64,000 nucleotides of DNA. Origin: an uncultured Hyphomicrobiales bacterium. Its GTDB lineage: Bacteria; Bacteroidota; Ignavibacteria; Kapaibacteriales; UBA2268. Below the pieces are notes generated by a model, which saw only the letters and a program-made list of their open reading frames with translations, was not told the origin of the DNA and did not search any database. Numbering within the stretch: position 1 is the stretch's first letter; every line of letters begins with the position of its first letter. Shown in pieces: positions 18,963 to 39,274 of this stretch. The position numbers were made by a program, and so were the translations under genes. The stretch lies in the NCBI GenBank assembly GCA_964645005.1, contig CAZXYS010000006.1:4741-68740 (forward strand), written 5' to 3'.

Positions 18963-21476
18963 ATGATGATCACAAAAAAATTAAATTGCTTACTCACTTC
19001 ATTAATATTAATTTTAATTTTCAGTTCAAACGCCTTCTCGGAAAACAAAAATGTAGAGCAATTCCAGTATCTTTCTCCCGTACCTGATGCTGTTTTTGTT
19101 TCACCATTTAATGATCTGATCATTAGATATGGTGAGGAGCTTGATGAATCAACCGTTAGCGCGGATCTTATCGAAGTGACTGCTTCGATTAGCGGCGTCC
19201 ACGATGGAGAAGTTATTTTACTGGAAGATAAGAAAACTATGCTCTTCCAGTTTTTCAACAGTTTCGAATATGATGATACCGTAACAGTATCATTGTTGCC
19301 GGGAATAAAGACTTCAGGCGGAGCTCCCGTACCGGAAATGACTTATACTTATTATGTATCAAGTTTCAGTTATTACTATGGGACACAAGCACCACCCGAT
19401 GATCCGACTGATAATGATATCCCTGATATTATGAAAGCAGGGGATGCAGGTAAAGTCAAAAATGACGAATTACTTTTTGACAAAACGGAATACCTCGAGA
19501 GCAGGCATCTCCCAGATGATTTTCCTCCAATGAAAGTAGATCGATACGGAGAACCCAACCCTGGATATTTGATGCTTACTCCTTTTGCCTGGAAAGATTC
19601 AGTTCTGGGTAATTATATCGTAATGATGGATAATTGGGGAACTCCTGTTTTTTATAAAAGCTATCCTGATTCCGTATTTAGCGCGGAATTCAAAATCCAT
19701 CCTAACGGTTATGTAACTTTTTTTGATGCAACTAAAAGGCACTTCGCTATTTATGACAGTTCCTTCAACAAAATCGGACACATAAAACATAGGAACGGTT
19801 ACCTGAACGATTTTCATGAACTTCTTGTCACTGAAGATAACCATAAATGGGTAATGACCTATGATCACCAGTGGGTGGATTTGACCGATTCACTCGAAGG
19901 GGGAATGCCAAACACCGAATTAGTTGGACTGATTATCCAGGAGCTTGATGAAAATGACAATGTTATCTTCCAATGGAGAAGCTGGGATAACTTTTCTATC
20001 TTTGATGCACATTTGCCAGGTGTGAGATATGATACCAATGCCTCAACTATTGATTATGTCCACGGCAATGCTATAGAAATTGAATCTGACACTGCTGTTC
20101 TTATATCCAGCAGAAATCTATCGGAGATAACAAAAATAGACCGTAGAACCGGGGAGATTATCTGGCGATTCGGTGGAAAGAACAATAGTTTCGATATTCA
20201 AAATGATGACAGAGTTCTTTCCTGGCAGCATGATTGCCGGCGATGGTCCAATGGCAATCTCTCTGCATTTGATAACGGTGTGCACCATGATAATCCTTAC
20301 TCCGGTGCTGTGGAATACAAAATTGATGAAGAAAATATGACGGCAGAATTGATATACAGACATATAATCGATGAAGATCATTTAGCTCGTGTTACGGGAA
20401 GTTCCAGGCACCTTGATAATGGCAATTTACTTGTAAGCTGGGGTTCTGCAAGATTTCCGAATATATCTGAGTATGATTCTCTTGGCAACAGAGTCCTGGA
20501 TGTTTCGTATCCTTCAATAAATTATAGAACTTATAGATATCCCTGGAAGACTACGCTATTCGGAACTGATATCGAGATGATTGATTACCAGAGTTTTGTT
20601 ATCGGCGATCCGGTTAAAAATAATATTACTTTGAGTACTGATTCATCGGATAACATTGAAATTAGCAGCTATCATACTAATTATGATGCTTTCAGTATAA
20701 CTGAAGATATCCCTCTGGATATTCCCGGAGAAGGTTCAACAGAAATTGAACTTATTTTTGATCCGCAGGAAAATGGATATTATGAAGATGTTCTAACCCT
20801 TAACCATGACTATGAGACATCTAGAATTGCCCGGCAGGTACATTTGAAAGCTATTGTTTTCAATAGTATGGATCCGGTAAGTTTAAGCTTCGAACCTCAG
20901 GATAGCTCCGAAAATGTACCGGTTGATAAGAAAATAGTGATTAATTTCTCCGAAGCTGTCCAAACCGAAGAAGGAAATAAATTAACACAATTAAATGCAG
21001 CCGGCTTTATTATGCTTGAAGACAGCGCCACCGGCGAAACTGTGCCTTTCTCCGCAACTATTTCCGGATTGAAAAAGACAATTACTGTTAAGCCTGACAA
21101 TCCTTTTGATAGTGCTTCAACTTATTATGTTGGTATCAAAGATGGATTAATGGATTACAGAGATGAAGCAGTAGTAGTTGACAGCGCTAAGTTTTCCACA
21201 CCGGAATATCCTTCCTCAATTTATGAGGAACCTGTCTCGGAAATAAAGCTTTATCCGAATCCGGCAAATGACCAAATCTATCTGGAAAATGAAAGTAATC
21301 TGCTCATTGAAAAGGTAGACATAGTGAATTCCTTTGGCAAAAAGGTCAGGCAATTACAAAATATAACCGGCACTCTCAATAAGATCGAAATGTCAGGTCA
21401 ATCTCCAGGTTTGTATTTTGTAAGGATTTTCACATTCGACGGCAAAATCTACAGATATAAATTTATCAAAAGGTGA
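18963..21476 (+). CDS. Arylsulfotransferase (ASST)-like beta-propeller protein with Ig-like domains and T9SS C-terminal sorting domain
   Basis: Central region IDRRTGEIIWRFGGKNNSFDIQNDDRVLSWQHDCRRWSNGNLSAFDNGVHH resembles the ASST family (PF05935) propeller. Signal peptide. C-terminal KLYPNPANDQIYLEN...GLYFVRIF matches a T9SS CTD. Confidence 0.55.
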   Translation: MMITKKLNCLLTSLILILIFSSNAFSENKNVEQFQYLSPVPDAVFVSPFNDLIIRYGEELDESTVSADLIEVTASISGVHDGEVILLEDKKTMLFQFFNSFEYDDTVTVSLLPGIKTSGGAPVPEMTYTYYVSSFSYYYGTQAPPDDPTDNDIPDIMKAGDAGKVKNDELLFDKTEYLESRHLPDDFPPMKVDRYGEPNPGYLMLTPFAWKDSVLGNYIVMMDNWGTPVFYKSYPDSVFSAEFKIHPNGYVTFFDATKRHFAIYDSSFNKIGHIKHRNGYLNDFHELLVTEDNHKWVMTYDHQWVDLTDSLEGGMPNTELVGLIIQELDENDNVIFQWRSWDNFSIFDAHLPGVRYDTNASTIDYVHGNAIEIESDTAVLISSRNLSEITKIDRRTGEIIWRFGGKNNSFDIQNDDRVLSWQHDCRRWSNGNLSAFDNGVHHDNPYSGAVEYKIDEENMTAELIYRHIIDEDHLARVTGSSRHLDNGNLLVSWGSARFPNISEYDSLGNRVLDVSYPSINYRTYRYPWKTTLFGTDIEMIDYQSFVIGDPVKNNITLSTDSSDNIEISSYHTNYDAFSITEDIPLDIPGEGSTEIELIFDPQENGYYEDVLTLNHDYETSRIARQVHLKAIVFNSMDPVSLSFEPQDSSENVPVDKKIVINFSEAVQTEEGNKLTQLNAAGFIMLEDSATGETVPFSATISGLKKTITVKPDNPFDSASTYYVGIKDGLMDYRDEAVVVDSAKFSTPEYPSSIYEEPVSEIKLYPNPANDQIYLENESNLLIEKVDIVNSFGKKVRQLQNITGTLNKIEMSGQSPGLYFVRIFTFDGKIYRYKFIKR

Positions 21477-25323: not shown

Positions 25324-25701
25324 CTAAGGACTGACATTAGTGAGCCGGATTAGATGAGCCGGACATTCCCGGCAGTCTGAAGAACCAAAACCCTTTACCG
25401 GCACTTCGGAATTTTGTCGATTCAATAATTCTCCGTTTAGTTCACATTCAATCTTCTTTTTTGAGGGGAATTTCTTAATATCAATGATCTCAACATTGTC
25501 ATCAGCAAGTAGAAAGTCTATATGCCAGTGTTGTTTTTTGTCTTTCCGTTGATGACGTTGAACTCTCTTTTCCAGTCCTCTCATTGCACTGCCGGTATAT
25601 ACATATTTACCGGCAGGGAACCGGCATTGACCAAGTGAGCCAATTTTTACCTTGATTTCCTTTTTAATATTAATTATCAACTGATAGGCGCCGGAGTTCA
25701 T
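25324..25701 (-). CDS. DUF123 / GIY-YIG-superfamily small protein
   Basis: GAYQLIINI...GKYVYTGSAMRGLEKRVQRH...HWHIDFLL...GFGSSDCRECPAHL matches the DUF123 hallmark blocks. 4-nt overlap with the upstream SDR gene. Confidence 0.6.
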   Translation of the reverse strand: MNSGAYQLIINIKKEIKVKIGSLGQCRFPAGKYVYTGSAMRGLEKRVQRHQRKDKKQHWHIDFLLADDNVEIIDIKKFPSKKKIECELNGELLNRQNSEVPVKGFGSSDCRECPAHLIRLTNVSP

Positions 25702-26405
25702 TGATCTTTCTCTGGTTTCCAGTTTTTCATAAACAGGTCGAAAAGGAAATTAGGCAGTACCTTTACTAATTTTGTAGAAAAAGCCATGGGAAATGGGAAA
25801 CTGATTACTTGTTTTTTTCTTTGAATACCTTTTGCAATAATTTTTGCTGCCTTATCAGCTTCCATAAGAAAAGGCATGTGGAATTGATTCTTTGCTGTAA
25901 TGTTTGATTTTACAAATCCCGGTCTGATCGTGATAACTCTAATTCCATGTCTTTTCAATTCCACTCTGGCGGATTCCAGAATATATGCTGCGGCTGCTTT
26001 ACTCGCGCTGTAGGTTGACGAGCCTGGGAAGCCTCTGGCATCAGCTAAAGAACCTATACCTGCTATAATTCCTCCGCCTTGCTTTATCATAGCCGGAACT
26101 AAAAATTCCAAAGCGTAAACTATACCGTTAATATTAATATCCATCACTTTATGAAATTGGTCATTATTCCAACTTTGGAATAAATTATAGCCGCCAACTC
26201 CGGCATTGAGTATCGCCAGATCAATCCTTTCCATTATATCGAAAGCCGAATTGATAGTATCCCGAACTGCTTTCCTATCAGTTACATCGCATATTTTGTA
26301 ATGGGCTTTACCACCTTTTGAGCGTATCTTCTCACATACTTCAATGAGTGCTTTCTTGTCTCGGGCAGCCAAGAAAAGCTCGGCTCCCTGCGAGGCATAT
26401 TCCAT
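25698..26405 (-). CDS. Short-chain dehydrogenase/reductase (SDR), probably starting at a non-canonical ATT codon at 26459
   Basis: NAGVGG and YSASKAA (YxxxK) motifs. The cofactor motif TGGSKGIGKALA is encoded in-frame upstream of the first ATG, with no ATG/GTG/TTG between it and an in-frame TAA at 26481-26483. AGGTGG lies 10 nt upstream of the ATT at 26457-26459. Confidence 0.8.
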   Translation of the reverse strand: MEYASQGAELFLAARDKKALIEVCEKIRSKGGKAHYKICDVTDRKAVRDTINSAFDIMERIDLAILNAGVGGYNLFQSWNNDQFHKVMDININGIVYALEFLVPAMIKQGGGIIAGIGSLADARGFPGSSTYSASKAAAAYILESARVELKRHGIRVITIRPGFVKSNITAKNQFHMPFLMEADKAAKIIAKGIQRKKQVISFPFPMAFSTKLVKVLPNFLFDLFMKNWKPEKDQ

Positions 26406-26495
26406 TGCAAGCGCTTTGCCTATTCCTTTGGAACCGCCTGTAATAAAGACTTTTTTAATGTCGATAATTCCACCTAATATTTACCGGGATACTGA

Positions 26496-27872: not shown

Positions 27873-28547
27873 ATGTGTGGTAGATTTGCGCTGTCGCCGC
27901 AGACTGGCGATATAGAGAAGCTGGTGCCCGGATTGCGGGTGGAAGTTGACATTCCGCCGCGGTATAATATTGCGCCGACGCAGGATGCAGCTTCAATTCT
28001 CAATGATGATCAGAAAGCGGTGAGTTACCTGCGCTGGGGGCTTATCCCATTCTGGGCGAAGGATCCGGCAATTGGCAATAGGATGATAAATGCCAGAGCG
28101 GAAACAGTTACGGAGAAACCGGCGTACAAAGGTCCGTTCAAGAAAAAGCGTTGTTTGGTGCTTGCTACGGGCTATTACGAATGGAAGAAAGAAGCGGGCA
28201 GCAAGAGGAAAATTCCTTATTTCATCAGGCTGAAGTCGCAAAAGCCGTTCACTTTTGCGGGGCTGTGGGATAACTGGACTGATGAGAACGGAAAGGATGT
28301 GCAGTCCTGCACCCTGATCACAACGGAAGCGAATGATGTTACGTCTGAAATACATCATCGGATGCCGGTCATTATTTCGCCGGAAGCGAGGATGGATTGG
28401 CTGGACAGCGTCGCTGCTGATGTAGAGAAACTTAGCAGCCTGCTGGTGCCCTACGAGGAGGAGCCGATGGAGGCTTATGAAGTTTCAGCGCTGGTGAATA
28501 ATCCGGGTAATGATACGCCGGAGTGTATCAAGCCGGTGGATGGGTGA
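27873..28547 (+). CDS. SOS response-associated peptidase (SRAP; YedK/HMCES family abasic-site processing protein)
   Basis: Begins MCGRF (catalytic Cys2). 224 aa. Conserved WGLIPFWAKD and ETVTEKPAYK blocks. Confidence 0.85.
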   Translation: MCGRFALSPQTGDIEKLVPGLRVEVDIPPRYNIAPTQDAASILNDDQKAVSYLRWGLIPFWAKDPAIGNRMINARAETVTEKPAYKGPFKKKRCLVLATGYYEWKKEAGSKRKIPYFIRLKSQKPFTFAGLWDNWTDENGKDVQSCTLITTEANDVTSEIHHRMPVIISPEARMDWLDSVAADVEKLSSLLVPYEEEPMEAYEVSALVNNPGNDTPECIKPVDG

Positions 28548-28779
28548 AAGATTAATTGGAGTGGTTCTTAAATCGTTATTGTCTATCCTTCGACATCGCC
28601 CAGCTAAAGCAGGATTTCGCTTCATAAAAAAAGTAGAGACATACCCCTGGTCTGTCACAAAAAAAAGGTTATACTTGGGTGGAGTTGAAGTGCGGCACGA
28701 TTTCCACAATTATGAAACAGCCTCATCTATAACATATTACTTTTTTATAAAAATTTTGGTATTTTTATCCCGGAAAATT

Positions 28780-28965
28780 CATTATAAGAATTCCCTCATC
28801 CCTAAATCCCTTTTCCCAAGTGTAGAAGGGACTTTCAGTGTAATAAGAAATTCTTACACCCTTCTCCCGCCGGGAGAAGGGCTGGGGATGAGGGGGAAAA
28901 GAGATTGTTTATGTTCTAATGCAAAAATCAGGGTTTAATGTAACATCCGGATTAAGATGACGCTT
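28780..28965 (-). repeat. MITE-like hairpin repeat, family 1, full-length copy C (inverted)
   Basis: Its reverse complement aligns along its length with copy B (aatccggatgttacat...ccccctcatccccagcccttctcccgccgggagaagggtgtaagaatttctt...gggatgagggaattcttataatgaattttccgg). Confidence 0.7.
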
Positions 28966-29034: not shown

Positions 29035-32000
29035 CTATGGCAAAATAACTATCTTAGCCACAGATTTTCTTGATTGCTTATTTACGGATAAGAAATACAG
29101 CCCCGGCTGTAAATCATTTATTTTGGAAATGTTCACAGTCCTTGTATTTCGCCCTGAATCATAAAACCTGCTGCCGCTTGAATAGATCTCATTACCCATA
29201 GCATCCCTCAGTTTAATGTTAACGTATCCAGCCTCCGGATTTTCAAAAGTGACCATAAATATATCCACCGCCGGATTAGGATAGACTTTGAGATTTAAAT
29301 CTTTAGCGGAACTGTATTCCATCACCCCGGTGTACACCGAATTCTTTCTGCCCGGCGTGCCGTTCATTACGTACGATGCCTGCCACGACTCGGGCAGCGA
29401 ATTGTCCAGCCCCGGGTTCTTCAATTCCATTGTCAATCCGGTTTCAACACAGTTTCCCGGCCAGGGGGAAGAGGGCAGATATTCCACTTTGTCGACAAGC
29501 TCGTCATTGGAATCATATAATCTTACCGCATCATCAGTCCCAAATCCGTAAGTGAAATCCTTAGGATAATGCTCAACATTGGGATGCACACTCTCGAAAT
29601 TATTTATATCCCTGCAAATAACCATGTATTCATCACTTTTGATATTCGTTTCCTGGTCAAAAATGAAGATATGGGAATCATCGTCATCTTTAATCTTCCA
29701 GCCGCTGATATTGATATCGTAATCATCAGCATTGTACAGTTCAATCCAGTCTTTGCTGTCCCTTTCGTCGGGCGGAGACTTATACATTATTTCGTTTATG
29801 ATAATTTTGCCTTCATATTGATGGATTTTATCCTCGAATTCAGCTTTCAATGTGACATTCTCAGGTAAATTAACTTTTAACTGCGGCAAACGTGCTTCCA
29901 TAGTATCGGAGAATATGGAGCGATCGCTGATCCATCGCTTGAATTCCATGCCTTCCGGGGGGGTTGCTTCCAATTCAACCGGCACTCCCTGGAAATAGAT
30001 TCCATTCCACGGAAACTCGTCAATGTTAATTGAATTCACTCTGATCTCACCGCCAGTGTGATTTGCATTTATTTCAAGTTTTGCTGTTCCGGTTAAGTTG
30101 AAATACTCAGCATAATGATCAGGTAAATAATTTAAACGAAGCTCATAGAATTTTTTTATTGACTCAATTTCATCTTCCCAATCAATAGCTGCTGAATCCC
30201 ACCTTTTTCTGTGCCTAATGATTTGTGGTCTGATAATATTTGCCAGACTATCTACTATTGGTACAACATTTTCAGCCTGCAGTACCGTGTTCATTAAATC
30301 CGCACTTTTATTGATGAATTTATGCCTAAACACCATGTTTTCCAAAAACTTACTAAAAATTGTCGGGAACGGCCATTTTTGTTTTAAAGTAAACTTAAGC
30401 ATATTATGGTTAAGCATGTATGCCCGGGAAGTACCGTCAAGATCATTTAGAATCCACCGCCATTTCCCATCTAATGAATCTGAGCGCCAATATTTTAGAT
30501 TTTTATAGGGCCAATCAAGATTTGTATTATAGAATTCAATGATGGCGTATTCCATAATGTTTTCAATATCTACACTTCTATTAATAAATTCATAGGAACC
30601 TGGTTTGTTAAAATCCATAGTTTCAATACTGTCATACATATTAAATAACTTAATTCCATCGCCATGTAATCTACCGTTAGCATCTTCATACAAATCAATT
30701 GTGTTTTTTGGGATGTCATATTTTAGACTGATTTGATCTTCATGTATTCTCTCTCTTATATTTTCGATCCCCCAGTATTCGCCATTCAGGAAAACAATGG
30801 CGGGGCTAAAAGCCATTGCATCAAGATTGTGGAAATCTTCTGCCAAAACAGCACAAATCCCATCTCTTATTATGCTGCTTTTCCATTCCGTACCGCCGTT
30901 ACGAACAATTAGGTGATCATATTTGTCCATTCCTTTATCCCCGAAAAAGGGATAATCAAAATATTTTTCACCGTAAATACTTCGCGCGTATAATCTCACT
31001 GATTTTTGCGGATGATATCTTGATGCATGACCGTGTACTCTCGCCCCCGCCCCCGATTCATACTTTAATTCCTTATCATCTCCCCATAACTCGAAATTGA
31101 CCGGTATTTCAATATCTTTGAATAAGTTATCTTTCACGAAAATGCCGTTCTCCTTGTTCCATAGATCCTCCGGGTCAGCAGACAAAGATATTACCTGCAA
31201 CGGAATGTCTTCATCAATGAAGTAAGTGTTGGATACTATCCTGCCGGGTAAAAGCGCATCATTGAATGCTCTGGCTCTTATAAGTGTCGTCGTATCGATT
31301 GTGATCGTTTCGCCGGTATATCGTATCGAGCCGCTGTCAGGCTCAGAGCCGTCTTTTGTATAATAGATATTAGCTTTATCATCATTGACACTTAATGTTA
31401 CCGTTTTATTCCCTTCGAACCAGCCGCCTTTATTTGAAAATATAGGGTCTGCGGTTCTTCCGGGGCAGCCTTGTAAATTTTCTTTTTCTGGTGTTGGATT
31501 CGGGCAAAATGAAAATTCGCCTTCTCCATCGGGGAATCTACTATAGGAAATATCCGTTATCTGATCGGTAAATATGACTTTATCTATTAATTCACCTCTC
31601 GAATTCCATAGAAATAACGATTCTGATTGTCTGTTAAGTTTAAAATCCGTATGTAATTCTCGTGATAAATAGCTTCTGCCTTCTTCGCCGGCGTTGAATT
31701 CAATGTGTTTGAATTTCTCAGGTGAAAAATCTTCCCCGTTGATTTTCAATTCCGAAACCGTTAGTTTTGACATTTGATCTCTATTACCGCTTCCAAAGGC
31801 TATACCAAGATAGATCGTGCCTTCCGGCATTGGAAGATTAATTTCAGCGCCGCAGTACCAGTGTACTCCGTCAGCATTAATGTATCCAAAAAGAGAATCC
31901 CCCCTGCGCTTTAACTTTATGTAGTAACTTGGATATTCCACTTCGACATTCCAAAAAGGCACTATCTTGGGCCATTCTCTTTCTCTGGTCCTGAAATGGA

Positions 32001-32538
32001 ATTTGTAGCCCTTCATTCGCGGGCTTTCGCATACCATAGCGCCATACCTGCAATCTTCAGTCAATTTCTCCCGTACCATCAGACCTGCTTTTGCATTATC
32101 CGCAGCGAAGCGCATAGCATTGAATTTTGCCTCTATTTCAAAATCCCCCTGAATTTCAATATAGTCAAACCTGATGCCGTCAGTTCCATCATAATATCCA
32201 AAGCCCCAGCCGGAGGACTCCATGATATAATTATCCGTGCCTCTTCTGTCCAGTCCCGAAGCATAAACCATCAATCTCTCACCCGGTTCAACTCTTCTGT
32301 CAGGAATTTCCCATGCTTCCTCAAAATTATTATTATCGCTTACCCTGTATCCCTTTAAATTGACCGGACTATCACCGTTGTTGTATAGCTCAAACCAGTC
32401 AGGGGTCTCCATATTTTCATCATAGTAGCAGCTATGGTTGGAGGCTGCGATTTCGTTGATTTTGATATCGGCTGCTGTACTGTCAATTACAATAACGATC
32501 AATGATAGGAATAGTACAAATCTCCGCTTTAATTTCAT
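29035..32538 (-). CDS. CotH kinase-family protein flanked by lamin-tail domains, with T9SS C-terminal sorting domain (LTD-CotH-LTD-CTD), paralog 1
   Basis: N-terminal LTD (IKINEIAASNHSCYYDENMETPDWFELYNNGDSPVNLKGYRVSDN). Central CotH-like region (LIVRNGGTEW...VFLNGEYWGIENIRE...WRWILNDLDGT). Second LTD (IINEIMYKSPPDERDSKDWIELYNADDYDINISGWKIKDDD). C-terminal KVYPNPAVDIFMVTFEN...GLYFLSV CTD. Confidence 0.7.
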   Translation of the reverse strand: MKLKRRFVLFLSLIVIVIDSTAADIKINEIAASNHSCYYDENMETPDWFELYNNGDSPVNLKGYRVSDNNNFEEAWEIPDRRVEPGERLMVYASGLDRRGTDNYIMESSGWGFGYYDGTDGIRFDYIEIQGDFEIEAKFNAMRFAADNAKAGLMVREKLTEDCRYGAMVCESPRMKGYKFHFRTREREWPKIVPFWNVEVEYPSYYIKLKRRGDSLFGYINADGVHWYCGAEINLPMPEGTIYLGIAFGSGNRDQMSKLTVSELKINGEDFSPEKFKHIEFNAGEEGRSYLSRELHTDFKLNRQSESLFLWNSRGELIDKVIFTDQITDISYSRFPDGEGEFSFCPNPTPEKENLQGCPGRTADPIFSNKGGWFEGNKTVTLSVNDDKANIYYTKDGSEPDSGSIRYTGETITIDTTTLIRARAFNDALLPGRIVSNTYFIDEDIPLQVISLSADPEDLWNKENGIFVKDNLFKDIEIPVNFELWGDDKELKYESGAGARVHGHASRYHPQKSVRLYARSIYGEKYFDYPFFGDKGMDKYDHLIVRNGGTEWKSSIIRDGICAVLAEDFHNLDAMAFSPAIVFLNGEYWGIENIRERIHEDQISLKYDIPKNTIDLYEDANGRLHGDGIKLFNMYDSIETMDFNKPGSYEFINRSVDIENIMEYAIIEFYNTNLDWPYKNLKYWRSDSLDGKWRWILNDLDGTSRAYMLNHNMLKFTLKQKWPFPTIFSKFLENMVFRHKFINKSADLMNTVLQAENVVPIVDSLANIIRPQIIRHRKRWDSAAIDWEDEIESIKKFYELRLNYLPDHYAEYFNLTGTAKLEINANHTGGEIRVNSINIDEFPWNGIYFQGVPVELEATPPEGMEFKRWISDRSIFSDTMEARLPQLKVNLPENVTLKAEFEDKIHQYEGKIIINEIMYKSPPDERDSKDWIELYNADDYDINISGWKIKDDDDSHIFIFDQETNIKSDEYMVICRDINNFESVHPNVEHYPKDFTYGFGTDDAVRLYDSNDELVDKVEYLPSSPWPGNCVETGLTMELKNPGLDNSLPESWQASYVMNGTPGRKNSVYTGVMEYSSAKDLNLKVYPNPAVDIFMVTFENPEAGYVNIKLRDAMGNEIYSSGSRFYDSGRNTRTVNISKINDLQPGLYFLSVNKQSRKSVAKIVILP

Positions 32539-32630: not shown

Positions 32631-35600
32631 TTATGGTAATACAATTATCTTTTTTACTACTTTTTCATGTGCTTTATTTACGGACAAAAAATATGTTCCT
32701 GAATTGTTGGCGGTAATTTTTGAAATATTCATAGAAATATCTGTTATGCCCTTCTTATAAAAGTGTTTTCCTGTGGAATAAATCTTATTGCCCAATACAT
32801 CATGCAACTCGATTACAACATGTCCCGAATTAGGATTTTCTATCGAGATATTTATCCTATCTGTTGCAGGGTTGGGATATATTTCCAAACTCAAACCAGA
32901 TATTGTCCTGTAGTCGAGAATGCCTACATAGACCGAATTCTTTCTGCCCGGCGTGCCGTTCATTACGTACGATGCCTGCCACGACTCGGGCAGCGAATTG
33001 TCCAGCCCCGGGTTCTTCAATTCCATTGTCAATCCGGTTTCAACACAGTTTCCCGGCCAGGGGGAAGAGGGCAGATATTCCACTTTGTCGACAAGCTCGT
33101 CATTGGAATCATATAATCTTACCGCATCATCAGTCCCAAATCCGTAAGTGAAATCCTTAGGATAATGCTCAACATTGGGATGCACACTCTCGAAATTATT
33201 TATATCCCTGCAAATAACCATGTATTCATCACTTTTGATATTCGTTTCCTGGTCAAAAATGAAGATATGGGAATCATCGTCATCTTTAATCTTCCAGCCG
33301 CTGATATTGATATCGTAATCATCAGCATTATACAATTCAATCCAGTCTTTGGAATCATTCTCGCCGGGCGGCGATTTATACATTATTTCGTTTATGACAA
33401 TTTTACCGTCATTTTGAAGCTCTGCTTTCTTGAATTTTGCTTTTAAATTCACAGAGTTTGGCAATGAAACAGTAATTTTGGGCTCAAAAGCATCAAGAGT
33501 ATCTTCGAAAATTGACCTGTCGCAAACCCATTTGTGAAAAATCAAATTATCTGTCGGTTCAGCTTCAATTTGAACGGGCACATCTTGAAAATAAATGCCA
33601 TTCCACGGGAATTCAGATATAGTAATATCATTTATCTTTATTTGCCCGTTTGATGGTTCAGTGTTTATTTTCAAATTTGCTATACCGCTTAATTCGAAGA
33701 AATCTACATAGTGTTTTGGAAAATGTTCTAATCTATGGTTTATATAATATTTAATGGCAAAAATCTCTCCTTCCCAATTAATTGCGGAAGTATCCCATTT
33801 TCTGCGATGCCTTTGTAAATTTGGTTTTATAATATCAACTAAACTGTCAACAATAGGCAATACATTGGTAGGTTGCAAAACCGTGTTTATAAATTCGGCA
33901 GTTTTATTAATAAATTTATTTTTGAATTTAGGATTTTTAAAAAAATTAAGTAAGATATCTGAAAAGGGACATTCTTTATGAGAAAGACGCTTAAAACAAT
34001 CATACTCGGCATTTCCCAAATAACCGAAGGTCCAGTCCAAATCATTTAATATCCATCTCCATTTGCCATCTAATGAATCAGAACGCCAGAATTTGAGATT
34101 TTTATGTGGCCAATCAAAATTGCCGGTATATAATTCCATAATTACATATTCCATGATATTATTGATATCCACATTTCTCTCAATAAAATCATAGGCTTCG
34201 TCCGCCTCAAAGTCAATTATCTTAATGCTATCAAGCAAACTATACAATTCTTTACCGTCCCCATGTAGTAATACGTTCGAATCTTCATACAGATCTATTG
34301 ATTTAGTTGGTATATCATGTTTCAAATGTAAATAATCTTCGTGGACTCTTTCTCTTATCTTTTCGATTCCCCAATACTCTCCATTAATAAACATTATAAC
34401 CGGCGTAACAGCCAATGCATCCAGATTTGAGAAATCATCGGCTAATATCGCGCAAATAGCATCTCTTATCAGGCTCTCTTTCCATTCGTTCCCACCATTA
34501 CGCAGTACAATGTGATTATATTTCTCCAGTCCTTTATCCCCGAAGAAAGGATATGAAAAATACTTGTCACCATAAATATTTCTGGCATATAATCTCATGC
34601 ACTTCTGGGGAAAACTTGTTGAACCTTGTCCATGTAATTTTGCTCCGGCTCGGGTTTCATATTTTAAGCTTTTATCAACTCCCCACAATTCAAAATTCAC
34701 CGGTATCTCTATATCAGCAGATATATTGCTATCATGGAAAATTCCTATTTCTTCATCCCAAAGGTCCTTTGGCTCAACAGCTATGGAAACTGTCGGTAAA
34801 GGAAATTCTTCTTCAATAAAGTAAGTATTCGATACAATGCGGCTGTTTAAAAGTTTATCATTGAAAGCTTTAGCCCTGATACAGGTTGTTGTATCGAGCA
34901 CAATAGTTTCACCTGTGTATTTGCTCGAGTTAATATCCGGTTCTGAGCCGTCTTTGGTATAGTAAATATCTGCATCTTGATCCGGCGAACTTATAGATAT
35001 CGTGGCTTTTCCTTCAAACCATCCGCCTTCATTTGAGAAAACCGGATCGGGGGTTTTTCCGGCAATTCCTTTGTCATTCTCTTTCTCGGGACTGGGTTTT
35101 GTGCAATAAGAGAAGTCTCCGCTGCCGTCAGGAAATCTGCCATAAGAAACATCCGTATACTGTTCCGAGAAAACAACTTTATCGAGCAATTCTCCTTTGG
35201 CATTCCATAAAAATAATGACTCTTTTTCTCTGTTTAGCTTGAAATCTGTATGCAATTCATTCGAATAATAGCTTCTCCCTTTTTTGCCTGTATTGAATTC
35301 TATAGAATGAAAATTTTCAGGTAAAAACTCTTTTCCATTAATTTTCAAATTAGTAACAGTCAATTTTGATATATGATTATAAGCACCACTCGTTAAAGCA
35401 ACTCCTAAATATACAGTATCCTGTTCCATTTGTAATTTTGCCCTTGCATCACAAGTCCAATGTACACCATCAGTACTAATATAGCAGAAAAGTGAATCAC
35501 CTTCCCTTTTAAATCTCATAAGATAGCTTGGATATTCAGCCAGAAAATTCCATAACCGGGATCTAATTGGTAACTTACCTTCATCGCTTCTATAAATAAA

Positions 35601-36188
35601 CCTGTATGCCTTTGTCACTTGGTTTTCACAAACCAGTGCAGCATATTTGCTGTCATCAGTCAATTTCTCTCTTACCATTAAACCGGCTTTGCTTTCGGGC
35701 AATGTTAATCTTAAAGCATCAAATCTTACATGTATCTCAAAATCGCCGCTTATCTTAATATAACTAAATCCAAACCCATCAATTTTATGCTTAAAAGAGA
35801 ATCCCCAGCCGGAGGACTCCATGATATAATTATCCGTGCCTCTTCTGTCCAGTCCCGAAGCATAAACCATCAATCTCTCACCCGGTTCAACTCTTCTGTC
35901 AGGAATTTCCCATGCTTCCTCAAAATTATTATTATCGCTTACCCTGTATCCCTTTAAATTGACCGGACTATCACCGTTGTTGTATAGCTCAAACCAGTCA
36001 GGGGGCTCCATATTTTCATCATAGTAGCAGCTATGGTTGGAGGCTGCTATCTCATTGATTACTATTTCTGCAATTGCACTTGAGCAGCAAATTATGAAAA
36101 AAAGTGTTCCTATTAAAATTTTCCACATTAGATACATAGATCCATTCCTTCTTTTGTTACAATGATCATTATAAACCGTAATAGTCAA
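32631..36188 (-). CDS. CotH kinase-family protein flanked by lamin-tail domains with T9SS C-terminal sorting domain, paralog 2
   Basis: Same architecture as 29035-32538. N- and C-terminal LTDs are nucleotide-identical to paralog 1 over ~265 bp and ~400 bp. The central CotH region and the CTD are diverged. True start is probably an internal Met (MYLMWKILIGTLFFIICCSSAIA signal, near 36137). Confidence 0.7.
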   Translation of the reverse strand: MTITVYNDHCNKRRNGSMYLMWKILIGTLFFIICCSSAIAEIVINEIAASNHSCYYDENMEPPDWFELYNNGDSPVNLKGYRVSDNNNFEEAWEIPDRRVEPGERLMVYASGLDRRGTDNYIMESSGWGFSFKHKIDGFGFSYIKISGDFEIHVRFDALRLTLPESKAGLMVREKLTDDSKYAALVCENQVTKAYRFIYRSDEGKLPIRSRLWNFLAEYPSYLMRFKREGDSLFCYISTDGVHWTCDARAKLQMEQDTVYLGVALTSGAYNHISKLTVTNLKINGKEFLPENFHSIEFNTGKKGRSYYSNELHTDFKLNREKESLFLWNAKGELLDKVVFSEQYTDVSYGRFPDGSGDFSYCTKPSPEKENDKGIAGKTPDPVFSNEGGWFEGKATISISSPDQDADIYYTKDGSEPDINSSKYTGETIVLDTTTCIRAKAFNDKLLNSRIVSNTYFIEEEFPLPTVSIAVEPKDLWDEEIGIFHDSNISADIEIPVNFELWGVDKSLKYETRAGAKLHGQGSTSFPQKCMRLYARNIYGDKYFSYPFFGDKGLEKYNHIVLRNGGNEWKESLIRDAICAILADDFSNLDALAVTPVIMFINGEYWGIEKIRERVHEDYLHLKHDIPTKSIDLYEDSNVLLHGDGKELYSLLDSIKIIDFEADEAYDFIERNVDINNIMEYVIMELYTGNFDWPHKNLKFWRSDSLDGKWRWILNDLDWTFGYLGNAEYDCFKRLSHKECPFSDILLNFFKNPKFKNKFINKTAEFINTVLQPTNVLPIVDSLVDIIKPNLQRHRRKWDTSAINWEGEIFAIKYYINHRLEHFPKHYVDFFELSGIANLKINTEPSNGQIKINDITISEFPWNGIYFQDVPVQIEAEPTDNLIFHKWVCDRSIFEDTLDAFEPKITVSLPNSVNLKAKFKKAELQNDGKIVINEIMYKSPPGENDSKDWIELYNADDYDINISGWKIKDDDDSHIFIFDQETNIKSDEYMVICRDINNFESVHPNVEHYPKDFTYGFGTDDAVRLYDSNDELVDKVEYLPSSPWPGNCVETGLTMELKNPGLDNSLPESWQASYVMNGTPGRKNSVYVGILDYRTISGLSLEIYPNPATDRINISIENPNSGHVVIELHDVLGNKIYSTGKHFYKKGITDISMNISKITANNSGTYFLSVNKAHEKVVKKIIVLP

Positions 36189-36210: not shown

Positions 36211-36885
36211 TTAATGCAACTCAAAGCTGTACTTATAATAAAAAGCCAGAATTCTCTCAATATCCGGCTCCTCAATATTGAATTCATTTTCATAGCGGTA
36301 GAAGATATCCAATTCATGACCATTGTCCAGATTAATCTCCACACCGACAGATAATTTGTATTTTAGAAAGCGGTCACCTTCATCCCAATTGAATCTGTAA
36401 AAGGCTTCGCTGCTCAAATACGGATTTACCGGACCTTTGAGATTGTAGTCTATCGCGAACTTATTGCGCCAGAAAACTCGATTATTATCGTCCACGCGAT
36501 ATTCTTTATCATAGCGGGAGCGAAGCTGAAATTCGAATCTATCTATTTCATATTCAAGATAGATTGTAGGTCGCAATTCATGCTGCTTTTTGTCAGTATA
36601 AAGATTATACCTGTAAGCTAAAGCCAGATCAACATATTTATGCAGATCGTATTGAAAACCATAGGATGCAATGCTGTTCTTCATATTTTTGCCGCTGTTT
36701 CGCAATCTTATCTCCTGTTCATATTCAAAATCAAGATCTTTGGATAGTTCAAATTCAATTTGCATTCCCATCCAGAATTCATTTTCATTATCCTGCGACT
36801 GTGCCGTAACAATACTGAAAATTATTAAACAACTGCAAAAAAATACTTTTCTTAAATATATATTCCTGTAATTTATAACATACAT
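36211..36885 (-). CDS. Putative outer-membrane beta-barrel protein (DUF2490-like)
   Basis: Signal peptide, then alternating hydrophobic/aromatic beta-strand-like segments rich in Tyr/Phe/Arg/Glu (YRYNLY, YLEYEIDRFEFQLRSRYDKEYRV). 21-22 bp gaps to both neighbours in the operon. Confidence 0.35.
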   Translation of the reverse strand: MYVINYRNIYLRKVFFCSCLIIFSIVTAQSQDNENEFWMGMQIEFELSKDLDFEYEQEIRLRNSGKNMKNSIASYGFQYDLHKYVDLALAYRYNLYTDKKQHELRPTIYLEYEIDRFEFQLRSRYDKEYRVDDNNRVFWRNKFAIDYNLKGPVNPYLSSEAFYRFNWDEGDRFLKYKLSVGVEINLDNGHELDIFYRYENEFNIEEPDIERILAFYYKYSFELH

Positions 36886-36906: not shown

Positions 36907-37515
36907 TTATTCATAATAAAATATCTTGACATTAGCCGTATCCTGCAGGAAGTCGATCCTGCCGATTTCATATCTGTGAATATTTAACCCTGTACGCTTT
37001 TTCAGATCATCCAGCAAAAGCGCATTATTCTCCGGTTTGATCAGTTCAATTTTCTCATAAGTAATATTCTTGCTAACTTCATTTTTTATCCAGGTCTTCT
37101 CAAGGAATAAAGCAAACGCAGCTATCAATACATTTACAAATAAGATGTTAACCAGCCCGATTTTCTGATTAGCTAAAGCATTGATAATAGCGACGCTTAT
37201 AGAAATAAATAGATAGGTCATTTCCTTGATTGGCACAGTTTCCGTTCTGTACCTGAGTATCGAAAAAATTGCAAACAGCCCGAAAGCAAATCCTATACTC
37301 AGATTGACACTGTTAAGCAGAAAACATACTATAAATACAGCAAGATTGAATAAGACCATCGTAAAGAGATAGTCCCTGTTTTGGGTTATTCTGAAATAGA
37401 TCTGCTTGGTGATGAAATAAACAAATATAAGATTCAGTATAAATCTTGGAATGAATTCCTTAATAAATGAAAATTCAAATAATTCATATTCTGCCATACT
37501 ATTTTGCCCCCACAT
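36907..37515 (-). CDS. DUF4956 family membrane protein
   Basis: Three-to-four TM helices followed by LRYRTETVPIKEMTYLF, which I recall as DUF4956-typical. Overlaps the VTC gene stop. Confidence 0.55.
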   Translation of the reverse strand: MWGQNSMAEYELFEFSFIKEFIPRFILNLIFVYFITKQIYFRITQNRDYLFTMVLFNLAVFIVCFLLNSVNLSIGFAFGLFAIFSILRYRTETVPIKEMTYLFISISVAIINALANQKIGLVNILFVNVLIAAFALFLEKTWIKNEVSKNITYEKIELIKPENNALLLDDLKKRTGLNIHRYEIGRIDFLQDTANVKIFYYE

Positions 37516-38280
37516 TACTTTTACAAATTTTTCGAATAGAAATTAGCTTGGACTTCAATCGATTGTATTTCACCTCGGGAACTGTCAATACCGTTCCAAT
37601 ACAATATTTGCTGAATGAAGCGGGTTTTATACCATATTCTTTCACAATATTGGCAAATCGGGAATTTTGATTCTTTCCCGGAAATTTAACCTCCGCTACT
37701 ACTAATCTCTCTAACCTGTTTTCATTTATTGAGTTTTCGAAATAGAGTTCATAGTCGAGTGTTACTTTTTCAGGGATGTTTTTATGAAGCAATGTAATTC
37801 TGTGATAGCTAACCTTTAGCTTTGAATGCAATCTATCGGTATCAATATTGAAAGTCTCCAAAGCTGTTTTTTTCAAAGCCCCGTTAATTCTCTCATTGAA
37901 CTGACCCTGAGGTTCTCTGTATTTTATAACTCTCTTCTTATTATTTTTATATTTTATCTCGAGGAATGTTCTATTTGACTCAACATAGGTTCTATAACGA
38001 ATCTTAATTCTATTTTGCTTGCCATTCACATGATTAGTGAATAAAAAATGATCTTCGGTATCAAAATAGTGATTTTCTATGGAGAAATGCCTTAAGCCAT
38101 CGATATCCAAAATCATATAGTCTCTTTGTAGGTTGGCAAGCAATTCCGGCAGTAAACTTACATTGAAGAAATACTTTTGCTCATACCTGTTGATAAGCTT
38201 TTGGCATCGAGTTGCTCAAGACTCGTTGGCTTGAAAGCACTTAGCATTCTTTTTGTTTCCCTATTTACCTTATTACCCAT
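37499..38280 (-). CDS. VTC (polyphosphate-polymerase/CYTH-like) domain protein, interrupted by an apparent -1 frameshift at an A4 run (~38199-38206)
   Basis: Downstream frame encodes ...LINRYEQKYFFNVSLLPELLANLQRDYMILDIDGLRHFSIENHYFDTED... (VTC N-terminal block). The only ATG starts (38280, 38247) are in the +1 frame, giving MGNKVNRETKRMLSAFKPTSLEQLDAKS before a TAA. The track ORF 37499-38143 starts at an internal TTG. Confidence 0.6.
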
Positions 38281-38669
38281 TTACTATTATTAACACATTA
38301 ATTCGATTTTTTTCTTTACAAAATACTAAAAAAAATGTGAACAGAAACATAAATTACCTGCTAACACAGTGTGTTTCTGATTTTCGAAAATTATGTCAAA
38401 TAGGATAAATAGGCTCTATATCAAAACCCTGATTCGTTTTGTTGAAAATCAATTCCACAAATACAATTAATACTTTTGTTTATATATTTAAAATTTTTCA
38501 TCAATCATTGCCCTTTTTAAAATTCACTATAAAATCAATATAGTAAATTTTTTACATAAAGCAAAATTATTTTTAGAGTAATTATTCTTTTTTTTGAATG
38601 TGTTAATAAAATGATTATATTTATCATACGTATTAGAAATAAAAAGATGATAATTTATATCATAAAAAG

Positions 38670-38894
38670 GTGGTAAAAATGCGCACTACAATCAACGTAA
38701 GAGATGATATTATCAGTGATATTATTGAATATTATGATGCAAAATCAAAAACCGAAGCCGTAAACAAGGCATTGGAAGATTTTGCTATGGACTTGAAAAG
38801 AAAAAAAATAATTGAGATCAGAGGCAAGATTGATATTGAAGATGATTTGGATGAATTGAAGAAAAAAGAAATCCAGGAGTTGAAAGAATTATGA
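38670..38894 (+). CDS. vapB: Type II antitoxin (VapB-like)
   Basis: 74 aa, charged C-terminus. Directly precedes the PIN toxin gene and overlaps it by 4 nt. Confidence 0.6.
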   Translation: MVKMRTTINVRDDIISDIIEYYDAKSKTEAVNKALEDFAMDLKRKKIIEIRGKIDIEDDLDELKKKEIQELKEL

Positions 38895-39274
38895 ATGAGC
38901 TTGTTATGATTGACTCAAGCTGCTGGATAGAGTATCTAAGAAATAGTGATCAAAAAATTGCTGATACCGTTGTTGATTTAATACAAAATCATCAGGCATG
39001 TATTTGTGGCATTATTGAAATGGAGATCGTACAAGGTATTCGGAATAAAAAACAAGCTGAATTAGTGTCTAATCTCTTCGATATACTCAAATATTATACT
39101 ATTGTTAGAGAAGATTTCATTAATGCCGGGAAAAGAATAATTGAAATGAAGAAAAAAGGTATTATAGTTGCTACTTCCGATTGCCTTATAGCTGAAATCT
39201 GTATAAAAAATAATCTTAAACTCTACACGAAAGATAAAGATTTTAATTACTTTCAAAAACTTAAACTTTATTAA
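38891..39274 (+). CDS. vapC: PIN-domain toxin (VapC family ribonuclease)
   Basis: 127 aa. MIDSSCWIEYL (first acidic residue), EMEIVQG, and ATSDCLIAEICIKNNLKLYTKDKDF (C-terminal acidic residues) match PIN domain topology. Confidence 0.75.
   Translation: MNELVMIDSSCWIEYLRNSDQKIADTVVDLIQNHQACICGIIEMEIVQGIRNKKQAELVSNLFDILKYYTIVREDFINAGKRIIEMKKKGIIVATSDCLIAEICIKNNLKLYTKDKDFNYFQKLKLY

What the first reader, a model, noticed from the sequence alone, without database searches (positions are those of the whole stretch)
38143..38290. VTC gene N-terminus lies in a different frame: frameshift at an AAAA run
The conserved VTC opening block (RYEQKYFF...) is in-frame with the body of the gene but is preceded by an in-frame TGA with no ATG/GTG/TTG. 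The only ATGs (38280, 38247) are in the +1 frame and encode MLSAFKPTSLEQLDAKS before terminating. Inserting one A into gccAAAAgctt (+ strand tttt at 38199-38202) would give a continuous MLSAFKPTSLEQLDAKKLINRYEQKYFF... protein. Three explanations are possible: a homopolymer sequencing error, a genuine inactivating mutation of the first gene of the CotH operon, or slippage-dependent expression.
Basis: seen in the sequence. Interest (0 to 1): 0.5.

Follow-up and report, generated by a model that had tools for sequence, protein, structure and literature searches.

The report
Frameshifted VTC gene, single-base deletion
The first gene of a VTC–DUF4956–DUF2490–CotH cluster has lost one A from a five-A run near its 5' end, which breaks the reading frame; this looks like a real but ordinary recent mutation, not programmed recoding.

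Summary
On the minus strand, the VTC (PF09359) gene body (frame B, 38215..37499) follows an in-frame TGA (38218-38216). It has no ATG/GTG/TTG before TTG 38143. The family's conserved N-terminus (MLSAFKPTSLEQLDAK) lies in the other frame, from ATG 38247, and that frame ends at TAA 38160-38158. One extra A in the AAAA run (38202-38199) restores a 249-aa protein. That protein aligns without gaps to 39 homologues and folds (pLDDT 92) like the yeast Vtc4 tunnel domain.

The closest relative (67% aa) has AAAAA there and reads through, as do all 112 other homologous loci examined. Three assemblies from separate sequencing runs match the window exactly, including the A4 run. None of the other ~42 long ORFs is split, so a sequencing error is unlikely.

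There is no slippery heptamer and no downstream structure (z = +0.36), and four A's are too few for transcriptional slippage. Both halves show purifying selection against the relative, and there is no second lesion, so the deletion is recent.

Every canonical start left in the body frame loses strand β1, which carries invariant R21 and K25 (equivalent to Vtc4 K200). Verdict: a genuine, recent, probably inactivating frameshift of low general interest. An ATC near-cognate start at 38194 is a minor open alternative.

The parts
38200..38247 (-). 5' piece of the VTC gene in frame A: ATG 38247 plus 15 codons, MLSAFKPTSLEQLDAK. This is the family's conserved N-terminal extension.
   Evidence: It aligns without gaps to the consensus L..F..I.L.EMD.VK of 39 homologues. 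Against the closest relative pN is 0.22 and pS 0.75. It adds about 14 bits to the family HMM score, against about 2-5 bits for shuffled versions. AF2 gives pLDDT 96 for residues 1-10.
38199..38202 (-). The A4 run, which is the site of the 1-nt deletion (ancestral state A5).
   Evidence: The closest relative L004 reads GCGAAAAAGCTC where the window reads GCCAAAAGCTT. Three Logan contigs from SRR7048218/19/20 carry the same A4.
38216..38218 (-). In-frame TGA that closes frame B upstream of the VTC body.
38158..38160 (-). TAA that ends the frame-A reading (29 aa from ATG 38247, 40 aa from ATG 38280).
37499..38200 (-). VTC / triphosphate-tunnel domain body in frame B (residues K17-K249 of the repaired protein, plus the stop). 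It has no other lesion.
   Evidence: Pfam PF09359 at 9.8e-24 after repair. AF2 pLDDT 92.3, and Foldseek top hits are yeast Vtc4 (3g3r, TM 0.67, E 3e-11).
38162..38188 (-). Codons for strand β1 (R21-N29, RYEQKYFFN), including invariant R21 and K25. In the present sequence no canonical start codon can reach this segment.
   Evidence: R21 and K25 are invariant in 40/40 sequences. AF2 places a strand at 21-29. The profile aligns K25 with the Lys of Vtc4 'RQTTKYWV', inferred to be K200. K200 coordinates triphosphate, and K200A lowers polyP (bioRxiv 10.1101/2023.01.27.525886).
38192..38194 (-). ATC (Ile19) in frame B, the only near-cognate start that would still include β1. 87 of 112 homologues have Met at this position.
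   Evidence: The HMM score of an ATC-start product is 253.7 bits.
38141..38143 (-). TTG, the first canonical start in frame B (residue L36). Its 214-aa product lacks β1.
38114..38116 (-). ATG used by public gene calls (205-aa product P0001).
36907..37497 (-). DUF4956 gene. Its ATG 37497 lies one base after the VTC stop; an alternative ATG at 37515 overlaps the VTC gene.
   Evidence: Pfam PF16316 at 9.7e-51. DUF4956 lies directly downstream of VTC in 95 of 103 loci that have enough sequence.
36211..36885 (-). DUF2490 (outer-membrane β-barrel-like) gene.
   Evidence: Pfam PF10677 at 4.4e-23. It is present in 49 of the 114 loci.
32631..36188 (-). CotH-kinase-domain protein of 1185 aa, with LTD, CHB_HEX_C and T9SS sorting domains.
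29035..32538 (-). Second, tandem CotH paralogue of 1167 aa with the same architecture.

Best explanation
This is a real, evolutionarily recent 1-nt deletion (A5 to A4), probably from replication slippage, in codons 16-17 of a bacterial VTC / triphosphate-tunnel gene. That gene heads a VTC-DUF4956-DUF2490-CotH-CotH cluster.

Ribosomes starting at ATG 38247 now make a 29-residue peptide and stop at TAA 38160. The rest of the gene can be entered only at TTG 38143 or ATG 38116. Both lie downstream of strand β1, which carries the invariant Arg and Lys of the tunnel.

The canonical 249-aa enzyme is therefore no longer made, and the gene is a young pseudogene or at best yields a crippled N-truncated product. 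Premature termination may also lower expression of the tightly abutting DUF4956 gene.

Shown: the frame break, its reproducibility, the ancestral A5 state, the conservation and structural role of the lost segment, and the absence of recoding signals. Inferred: loss of function and polarity on downstream genes.
For: 1. Frame break and repair. One added A gives a gap-free match to 39 homologues, including invariant L18, R21 and K25. Pfam coverage extends to profile position 1.
2. Ancestral state. The closest relative (L004, 65-67% aa identity) has GCG AAA AAG CTC ATC AAC AGG and reads straight through. All 112 other homologous loci with the motif read through in one frame, and 108 have a canonical start at least 20 codons upstream of R-x-E-x-K.
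3. Not a random error. Contigs assembled independently from SRR7048218, SRR7048219 and SRR7048220 are exact substrings of the window, including the A4 run. No intact 249/260-aa allele exists in the 5.8-billion-cluster protein collection. The window has 1,229 A/T runs of at least 4 nt. None of the other ~42 long ORFs (up to 1257 aa) is split, and all but the SDR gene are N-terminally complete against Pfam wherever a family match allows the check.
4. Recent. Against L004, pN/pS is 0.22/0.75 for the 16 codons before the shift in frame A. It is 0.12/0.76 for the 19 codons after it in frame B, and 0.22/0.89 for the rest. There is no second stop or indel in 249 codons.
5. The lost part matters. AF2 (pLDDT 92.3) puts residues 21-29 in the first long tunnel strand. 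The fold matches Vtc4. K25 aligns with the Vtc4 Lys inferred to be K200, a triphosphate ligand whose mutation lowers polyP. The family HMM score drops by 40 bits for the TTG-start product.
6. No recoding signals. See the rival explanations.
Against: - Read-level data were not available. The three Logan assemblies and the NCBI contig probably derive from the same study, so a systematic artefact or a minority A5 allele cannot be excluded.
- The rest of the gene and the four downstream genes are perfectly intact. That is expected for a very recent lesion, but it is equally what one would see if the protein were still made in some way.
- Near-cognate starts seem to be used occasionally in this gene family and in this genome (SDR gene; L004, L038, L092/93). 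ATC 38194 could therefore rescue a product containing the whole Pfam domain.
- Only one close relative exists for polarising the change, and it comes from a 3.4x-coverage contig.
Confidence: 0.7

Rival explanations
1. Sequencing or assembly error: the organism really has A5 and an intact gene.
For: Homopolymer indels are the classic artefact of some platforms. The gene is otherwise flawless and under purifying selection. All data may come from one study.
Against: Three separately sequenced and separately assembled runs give the identical A4 in contigs that are exact substrings of the window. A 4-nt run is short for homopolymer error. No other frame break occurs among the other ~42 long ORFs, despite 1,229 A/T runs of at least 4 nt. 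No intact allele is in the protein collection.
Confidence: 0.07
2. The gene is still functional through near-cognate initiation at ATC 38194-38192 in frame B. This could be direct, or by re-initiation after the short frame-A ORF. The product would be a 231-aa protein with the complete Pfam VTC domain but without the 18-residue N-terminal extension.
For: - ATC sits exactly where 87 of 112 homologues have Met.
- An ATC-start product keeps R21/K25 and scores 253.7 bits against 269.6 for full length.
- In the same window, an SDR gene has its invariant GxxxGxG motif in frame with only ATT/ATC/ATA upstream.
- L004, L038 and L092/93 likewise lack canonical starts before the conserved N-terminus.
- In E. 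coli, AUA/AUC/AUU/CUG initiate at about 1-2% of AUG (bioRxiv 10.1101/063800).
Against: - The N-terminal extension is conserved across the family (L10 nearly invariant, L18 invariant) and confidently structured (pLDDT 96). It is under purifying selection against L004, so it is not dispensable.
- Ribosomes translating frame A from ATG 38247 run across the ATC.
- Near-cognate initiation is weak.
- No homologue was found whose open frame begins at this position.
Confidence: 0.1
3. Programmed recoding: a -1 ribosomal frameshift at C-AAA-A, or insertion of an extra A by transcriptional slippage, makes the full-length protein at a set ratio.
For: The needed shift is -1, which equals one extra A, and it lies at an A run. 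The gene is otherwise intact.
Against: - The zero-frame codons are GCC AAA AGC, so there is no X XXY YYZ heptamer. After a -1 slip, tRNA-Lys would have to re-pair with CAA (rule from established knowledge, reviewed in PMC5009743).
- The 101 nt from the site fold no better than shuffles (-14.1 against -15.2 ± 3.0 kcal/mol, z = +0.36).
- The frameshift is absent in the closest relative and in 112 other homologues.
- Selection against transcriptional slippage is seen at runs of about 9 A/T, and productive use on 8 (PMC1088944). This run is 4.
Confidence: 0.03
4. Reversible on/off switching (phase variation), or a standing A4/A5 polymorphism in the population.
For: The indel lies in a homopolymer at the 5' end of the first gene of a surface- or secretion-related cluster, which is a typical location for contingency loci.
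Against: The tract has only 4-5 nt, whereas phase-variable homopolymers are typically about 7 nt or longer (own knowledge).
Confidence: 0.05
5. The gene naturally starts at TTG 38143 or ATG 38116, and the truncated 214/205-aa protein is the normal, functional form. This is how public gene callers annotate it.
For: Gene callers report the 205-aa product. It still passes the Pfam threshold at 71.6 bits.
Against: No homologue starts there. All keep the R-x-E-x-K[YF] strand, and R21/K25 are invariant. The 35 codons upstream are conserved at the amino-acid level against saturated synonymous change. The truncation removes a tunnel strand and half of helix 30-40.
Confidence: 0.03

Closest known systems
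Yeast Vtc4 catalytic triphosphate-tunnel (TTM/CYTH-like) domain, PDB 3G3Q/3G3R; Pfam PF09359 VTC
   Same: - The fold matches (Foldseek E 3e-11, TM 0.67).
- The profile matches Vtc4.
- The basic tunnel residues are conserved. These include the β1 Lys aligned with the Lys inferred to be K200, and the R-x-R / K-x-K strands (R80, K82, R84, R86, E97, K99, K101 are invariant).
   Different: This is a stand-alone 249-aa bacterial protein with no SPX domain or membrane domain. It is paired with DUF4956 rather than Vtc1-type subunits. Its activity is untested, and here its reading frame is broken.
Bacterial 'polyphosphate polymerase (VTC) - DUF4956 - CotH' accessory gene set, described next to Gram-positive pel operons (bioRxiv 10.1101/768473) and in Clostridium perfringens NELoc-2 (PMC2879425)
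   Same: The gene trio is the same and is arranged contiguously on one strand. VTC followed by DUF4956 is found in 95 of 103 loci.
   Different: This cluster is in a T9SS-bearing (FCB-group) organism. It has an extra DUF2490 β-barrel gene and two giant tandem CotH-LTD proteins with Por secretion tails. No pel genes are nearby. The function of the module is unknown in all cases.
Ordinary homopolymer-indel pseudogenes (replication slippage)
   Same: A single-base length change in a short mononucleotide run causes an early frameshift. Orthologues are intact.
   Different: Nothing of note. The lesion is young, with no secondary decay.
Programmed frameshift or slippage genes, such as E. coli dnaX A AAA AAG and Thermus thermophilus dnaX 9A (PMC1088944, PMC5009743)
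   Same: Only that an A run lies at the junction of two frames.
   Different: There is no heptamer, no stimulatory structure and no conservation of the shift. The run is 4 nt, not 7-9.

Membership tests
VTC / triphosphate tunnel metalloenzyme family (PF09359) | Significant match to the family profile over the whole domain | tested here: met
   After repair the match is 84.6 bits (cut-off 23) over profile positions 1-231 of 235. As encoded, it covers only positions 20-231.
VTC / triphosphate tunnel metalloenzyme family (PF09359) | Closed β-barrel tunnel fold like Vtc4 | tested here: met
   The AF2 model of the repaired protein has pLDDT 92.3 and pTM 0.89. Foldseek against PDB puts Vtc4 chains on top (E 1.7e-11 to 1e-9, TM up to 0.67), followed by YgiF and CYTH proteins.
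VTC / triphosphate tunnel metalloenzyme family (PF09359) | Conserved basic or acidic tunnel residues, including the β1 Lys (Vtc4 K200) | tested here: met
   R21, K25, R80, K82, R84, R86, E97, K99, K101, R150, E160, E186 and K188 are invariant in the 40-sequence alignment, so they are present in the repaired translation. The K25-to-K200 equivalence is inferred and the construct numbering.
VTC / triphosphate tunnel metalloenzyme family (PF09359) | One uninterrupted reading frame with a start codon upstream of β1 | tested here: not met
   The frame is broken at 38199-38202, and there is no ATG/GTG/TTG between TGA 38218 and TTG 38143.
VTC / triphosphate tunnel metalloenzyme family (PF09359) | PolyP polymerase or triphosphatase activity | not testable with these tools
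   This needs biochemistry on a repaired recombinant protein.
Programmed -1 ribosomal frameshift site | Slippery heptamer X XXY YYZ in the incoming frame | tested here: not met
   The incoming codons are GAT GCC AAA AGC. A -1 re-pairing would be on CAA.
Programmed -1 ribosomal frameshift site | Stimulatory RNA structure 5-9 nt downstream | tested here: not met
   MFE is -14.1 kcal/mol against a shuffle mean of -15.2 (z = +0.36). 121 of 200 shuffles fold at least as well.
Programmed -1 ribosomal frameshift site | Frameshift conserved among relatives | tested here: not met
   L004 and 112 further homologues are in a single frame across the site.
Transcriptional slippage site | Homopolymer A/T run long enough for RNA polymerase realignment (about 8-9 nt or more) | tested here: not met
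   The run is 4 nt. The threshold is taken from PMC1088944.
Phase-variable (contingency) homopolymer locus | Tract-length variation between samples or isolates | tested here: inconclusive
   Three assemblies all show A4, but minority alleles cannot be seen without reads.
Pseudogene by frameshift | Disrupted frame where orthologues are intact, reproducible in independent data | tested here: met
Pseudogene by frameshift | Loss of the functional product | not testable with these tools
   This is inferred from loss of β1 with R21/K25. Proteomics or activity data are needed.

The most novel reading that the evidence does not exclude
The VTC protein may still be produced from the near-cognate ATC at 38194. 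This would reflect a broader habit of this poorly sampled FCB-group lineage, and of this gene family, of initiating at AUU/AUC/AUA/CUG codons.

Supporting hints are:
- the SDR gene at 25698-26459, whose NAD-binding motif has only ATT/ATC/ATA codons upstream;
- the VTC genes in L004, L038 and L092/93, which lack canonical starts before a conserved N-terminus.

If so, the frameshift would have trimmed rather than killed the gene.
Probability: 0.1. Interest if true: 0.4.

Novelty: already known. Interest (0 to 1): 0.15.

Why it matters
**Annotation.** The public gene call (a 205-aa 'VTC' protein from ATG 38116 plus a 40-aa ORF) hides a frameshifted gene. It should be flagged as disrupted, not counted as an intact VTC enzyme.

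**Biology.** This organism keeps two very large, intact, secreted CotH-domain proteins and an intact DUF4956/DUF2490 pair, while the tunnel enzyme that normally leads the cluster is broken. If the lesion is fixed, this is a natural knock-out. It could help show whether CotH proteins in this conserved but uncharacterised module depend on the VTC partner.

Beyond that, it is an ordinary young pseudogene.

Tried and rejected
- **Genome-collection scan with the family alignment.** The two peptide patterns chosen (KNNK[KG][RK]TxK; H[QH][NR][GK]K...) do not match the window's own sequence (KNNKKRVIK, HVNGKQNRIK). The source genome and any very close relatives were therefore missed, and the organism could not be named. 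The best hit was 43% identical (Ca. Kapaibacterium).
- **Exact DNA pattern allowing A4 or A5 in JGI metagenome contigs.** No match.
- **Protein-based scan of metagenome contigs.** Nothing closer than 41%.
- **Cluster look-up.** No names or accessions.
- **Literature search for the three SRR accessions.** Nothing, so platform and sample type remain unknown.
- **Sigma-70 promoter and intrinsic terminator scan of the cluster.** Counts equal the shuffle expectation, so it is uninformative. This consensus probably does not apply to this lineage anyway.
- **tRNA scan of the window.** None found.
- **Idea that both close relatives carry independent 5' lesions (window frameshift, L004 start loss), hinting at something systematic.** This was weakened by finding three further homologous loci (L038, L092/93) that also lack canonical starts. 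L004 more likely uses a near-cognate start.
- **ATG 38280 as the true start.** The 11 codons between 38280 and 38247 show pN of about 0.41 and pS of about 0.32 against L004 (derived). They add only 1.8 bits, so ATG 38247 is preferred.

Full report
**1. What is in the sequence**

- The VTC-domain body is open from just after a TGA at 38218-38216 down to TAG 37501-37499. The 24 codons after that TGA contain no ATG, GTG or TTG, and the first is TTG 38143-38141.
- The two upstream ATGs (38280 and 38247) are in the other frame. That frame reads MGNKVNRETKRMLSAFKPTSLEQLDAKSLSTGMSKSISSM and stops at TAA 38160-38158.
- The two frames meet at TGCC-AAAA-GCTT (A run at 38202-38199). Re-reading one A gives a continuous 249-aa protein, MLSAFKPTSLEQLDAKKLINRYEQKYFF....

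**2. The two pieces belong to one gene**

- Pfam VTC (PF09359) matches the largest canonical ORF only from profile position 20 (71.6 bits). It matches the repaired protein from position 1 (84.6 bits).
- A search of 5.8 billion protein clusters with the repaired protein returned 61 VTC proteins. In a 40-sequence alignment the repaired N-terminus fits without a gap.
- L18, R21 and K25 are invariant, and L10 and L33 nearly so. All five lie upstream of TTG 38143 (residue L36).
- A family HMM built without the query gives these scores:

| Version | Bits |
|---|---|
| Repaired protein | 269.6 |
| Frame B alone | 255.9 |
| ATC-38194 start | 253.7 |
| TTG-38143 start | 229.8 |
| ATG-38116 start | 218.9 |
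| N-terminal 15 residues shuffled (five versions) | 257.6-260.7 |

The frame-A peptide and the β1 block are therefore both specific family features, not chance.

**3. What the lost segment does**

- AlphaFold2 on the alignment gives a confident model (pLDDT 92.3, pTM 0.89). It has a short strand at 6-8, a helix at 10-15, a long strand at 21-29 and a helix at 30-40.
- Foldseek against the PDB places the yeast Vtc4 tunnel domain on top (3g3r, E 3e-11, TM 0.67). Other triphosphate tunnel enzymes follow.
- A profile search of PDB sequences aligns 'nRvdtKy' with Vtc4 'VRQTTKYWV'. With the three-residue tag of the 189-480 construct, that Lys is K200; this numbering is my inference.
- K200 is one of six basic residues that hold the triphosphate, and K200A lowers polyP (bioRxiv 10.1101/2023.01.27.525886).
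- Any product starting at TTG 38143 or ATG 38116 lacks this strand entirely. The frame-A peptide reads the same nucleotides as nonsense (STGMSKSISSM).

**4. Which state is ancestral**

- The only close relative found is an ENA metagenome contig (L004, 65-67% aa identity). At the same place it reads GCG AAA AAG CTC ATC AAC AGG TAC GAG, with five A's and a continuous frame.
- 114 more distant homologous loci were fetched from genome and metagenome collections. All 112 in which the motif could be located read through in one frame.
- 108 of those 112 have a canonical start at least 20 codons upstream of the R-x-E-x-K[YF] strand. No homologue starts at the position equivalent to 38143.
- The window's A4 is therefore a derived 1-nt deletion.

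**5. Real or artefact**

- The 205-aa gene call occurs on contigs assembled independently by Logan from three runs: SRR7048218, SRR7048219 and SRR7048220. All three contigs (3369, 2136 and 1427 nt) are exact substrings of the window and include the A4 run.
- No intact allele exists in the protein collection.
- The window contains 1,229 A/T runs of at least 4 nt. A gene map plus Pfam scans of the other ~42 long ORFs found no split gene, and the ORFs reach 1257 aa. Where a Pfam family matched, N-terminal coverage was normal. The one exception is the start-codon oddity described in section 9.
- I could not see reads, and the datasets are probably from one study. I therefore leave about 7% for an artefact and about 5% for an unassembled A5 minority.

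**6. Age of the lesion**

Nei-Gojobori counts against L004 show saturated synonymous change and constrained non-synonymous change in every segment, each read in its repaired frame.

| Segment | pN | pS |
|---|---|---|
| 16 codons before the shift (frame A) | 0.22 | 0.75 |
| 19 codons between the shift and TTG 38143 (frame B) | 0.12 | 0.76 |
| Remaining 214 codons | 0.22 | 0.89 |

There is no second stop or indel. Both pieces were translated as one protein for most of the divergence, so the deletion is recent or, less likely, compensated.

**7. Is it compensated by recoding**

- The shift needed is -1.
- The incoming codons are GAT GCC AAA AGC. There is no X XXY YYZ heptamer, and tRNA-Lys slipping back would face CAA (rule from the recoding literature, for example PMC5009743).
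- The 101 nt starting at the site fold no better than shuffled sequence (z = +0.36).
- Selection against transcriptional slippage is seen at runs of about nine A/T, with productive use on eight (PMC1088944). Four is far too short.
- The shift is not conserved (section 4).
- I put programmed recoding at about 3%.

**8. A less conventional escape**

- Codon 19 is ATC (38194-38192), and 87 of 112 homologues have Met there. An ATC start would give a 231-aa protein holding the whole Pfam domain.
- Near-cognate starts work at about 1-2% of AUG in E. coli (bioRxiv 10.1101/063800).
- There are hints that they are used in these organisms. The SDR gene in this window (section 9) and the VTC genes of L004, L038 and L092/93 have conserved N-termini with only ATT/ATC/ATA/CTG codons upstream.
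- Against this, the 18-residue extension is conserved, structured and selected. Frame-A ribosomes also traverse the ATC.
- I give this about 10%.

**9. Context and things noticed**

- The gene heads a minus-strand cluster. DUF4956 follows, with its ATG at 37497 one base after the VTC stop. Next come DUF2490 and two tandem CotH proteins of about 1,170 aa, each with LTD, CHB_HEX_C and T9SS sorting domains.
- VTC followed by DUF4956 is the rule, in 95 of 103 loci.
- The VTC/'polyphosphate polymerase'-DUF4956-CotH set has been noted as a conserved accessory module of unknown function (bioRxiv 10.1101/768473; PMC2879425).
- Early termination in the first gene may reduce coupled translation of DUF4956. 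This is an inference.
- Upstream and divergent is a VapB/VapC pair.
- The SDR gene at 25698-26405 matches Pfam only from profile position 19. Its TGGSKGIG motif is in frame upstream, but only ATA/ATT/ATC codons lie between it and the preceding stop. Homologues are about 253-262 aa and start 3-7 residues before the motif. The likely start is therefore ATT 26459, or else this is a start-codon mutation.

**10. Verdict**

The best explanation is a genuine, recent single-base deletion in a short A run. It inactivates, or at least decapitates, the VTC tunnel enzyme at the head of a known but uncharacterised VTC-DUF4956-CotH module (confidence about 0.7).

This is an ordinary kind of event. Its main value is for correct annotation, and as a possible natural knock-out within that module.

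Noticed in passing
window 25698-26483 (minus strand): A short-chain dehydrogenase gene has its invariant NAD(P)-binding motif (KKVFITGGSKGIGKALA) in frame with the body. No ATG/GTG/TTG lies between the upstream stop (TAA 26483-26481) and the motif; only ATA, ATT, ATC and ATT occur. The first ATG (26405) would delete the motif. Homologues (about 50-55% identity, 253-262 aa) start 3-7 residues before the motif. The gene probably starts at ATT 26459, or it has a start-codon mutation.
   Followed up: partly
L004 502-640; L038 67-175; L092/L093 about 2935-3040: Four VTC homologue loci encode the conserved N-terminus (..F..ISL..) in frame but have no canonical start upstream. The candidate starts are ATT-AAG (L004), CTG-AAA (L038) and ATC-AAA (L092/93). 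In L004 the position of window ATG 38247 is AAA, and that of ATG 38280 is ATA. This suggests occasional near-cognate initiation in this family or these lineages.
   Followed up: partly
window 29035-32538 and 32631-36188 (minus strand): Two tandem paralogous giant CotH-kinase-domain proteins (1167 and 1185 aa) have identical architecture: two Lamin-tail (LTD) matches, CHB_HEX_C/Fn3_assoc, CotH and a T9SS Por_Secre_tail. Both are intact downstream of the broken VTC gene.
   Followed up: partly
window 38670-39274 (plus strand): A VapB antitoxin / PIN-domain VapC toxin pair with overlapping stop and start lies divergent from the VTC cluster. It is about 390 nt upstream of the VTC 5' end.
   Followed up: no
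window 28510-28938 (plus strand): A 142-aa ORF with no Pfam match overlaps the 3' end of the SRAP (SOS-response-associated peptidase) gene (27873-28547) by 38 nt in another frame. The SRAP gene itself is complete (profile 1-214/214), so this is not a split gene. The nature of the ORF is unknown.
   Followed up: no
window 38192-38194 and alignment A1 column of residue 19: 87 of 112 VTC homologues have Met two residues before the invariant Arg of strand β1 (K-L-M-N-R). The window and L004 have Ile (ATC). It is not known whether the internal Met ever serves as an alternative start in the family.
   Followed up: no
window 2298-3578 and 5735-6922; 54937-57036 and 57171-59237: Two gene families each occur in two nearby copies on the same strand. 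They are two CHASE2-domain proteins and two tandem S9 prolyl-oligopeptidase-family proteins with PD40 propellers. Several T9SS-tailed secreted proteins also occur in the window (8143-9726, 9835-13287, 18963-21476). This is consistent with a Bacteroidota/Ignavibacteriota-like (FCB) organism that has no close sequenced relative. The best protein identities to named genomes are about 43-55%.
   Followed up: no
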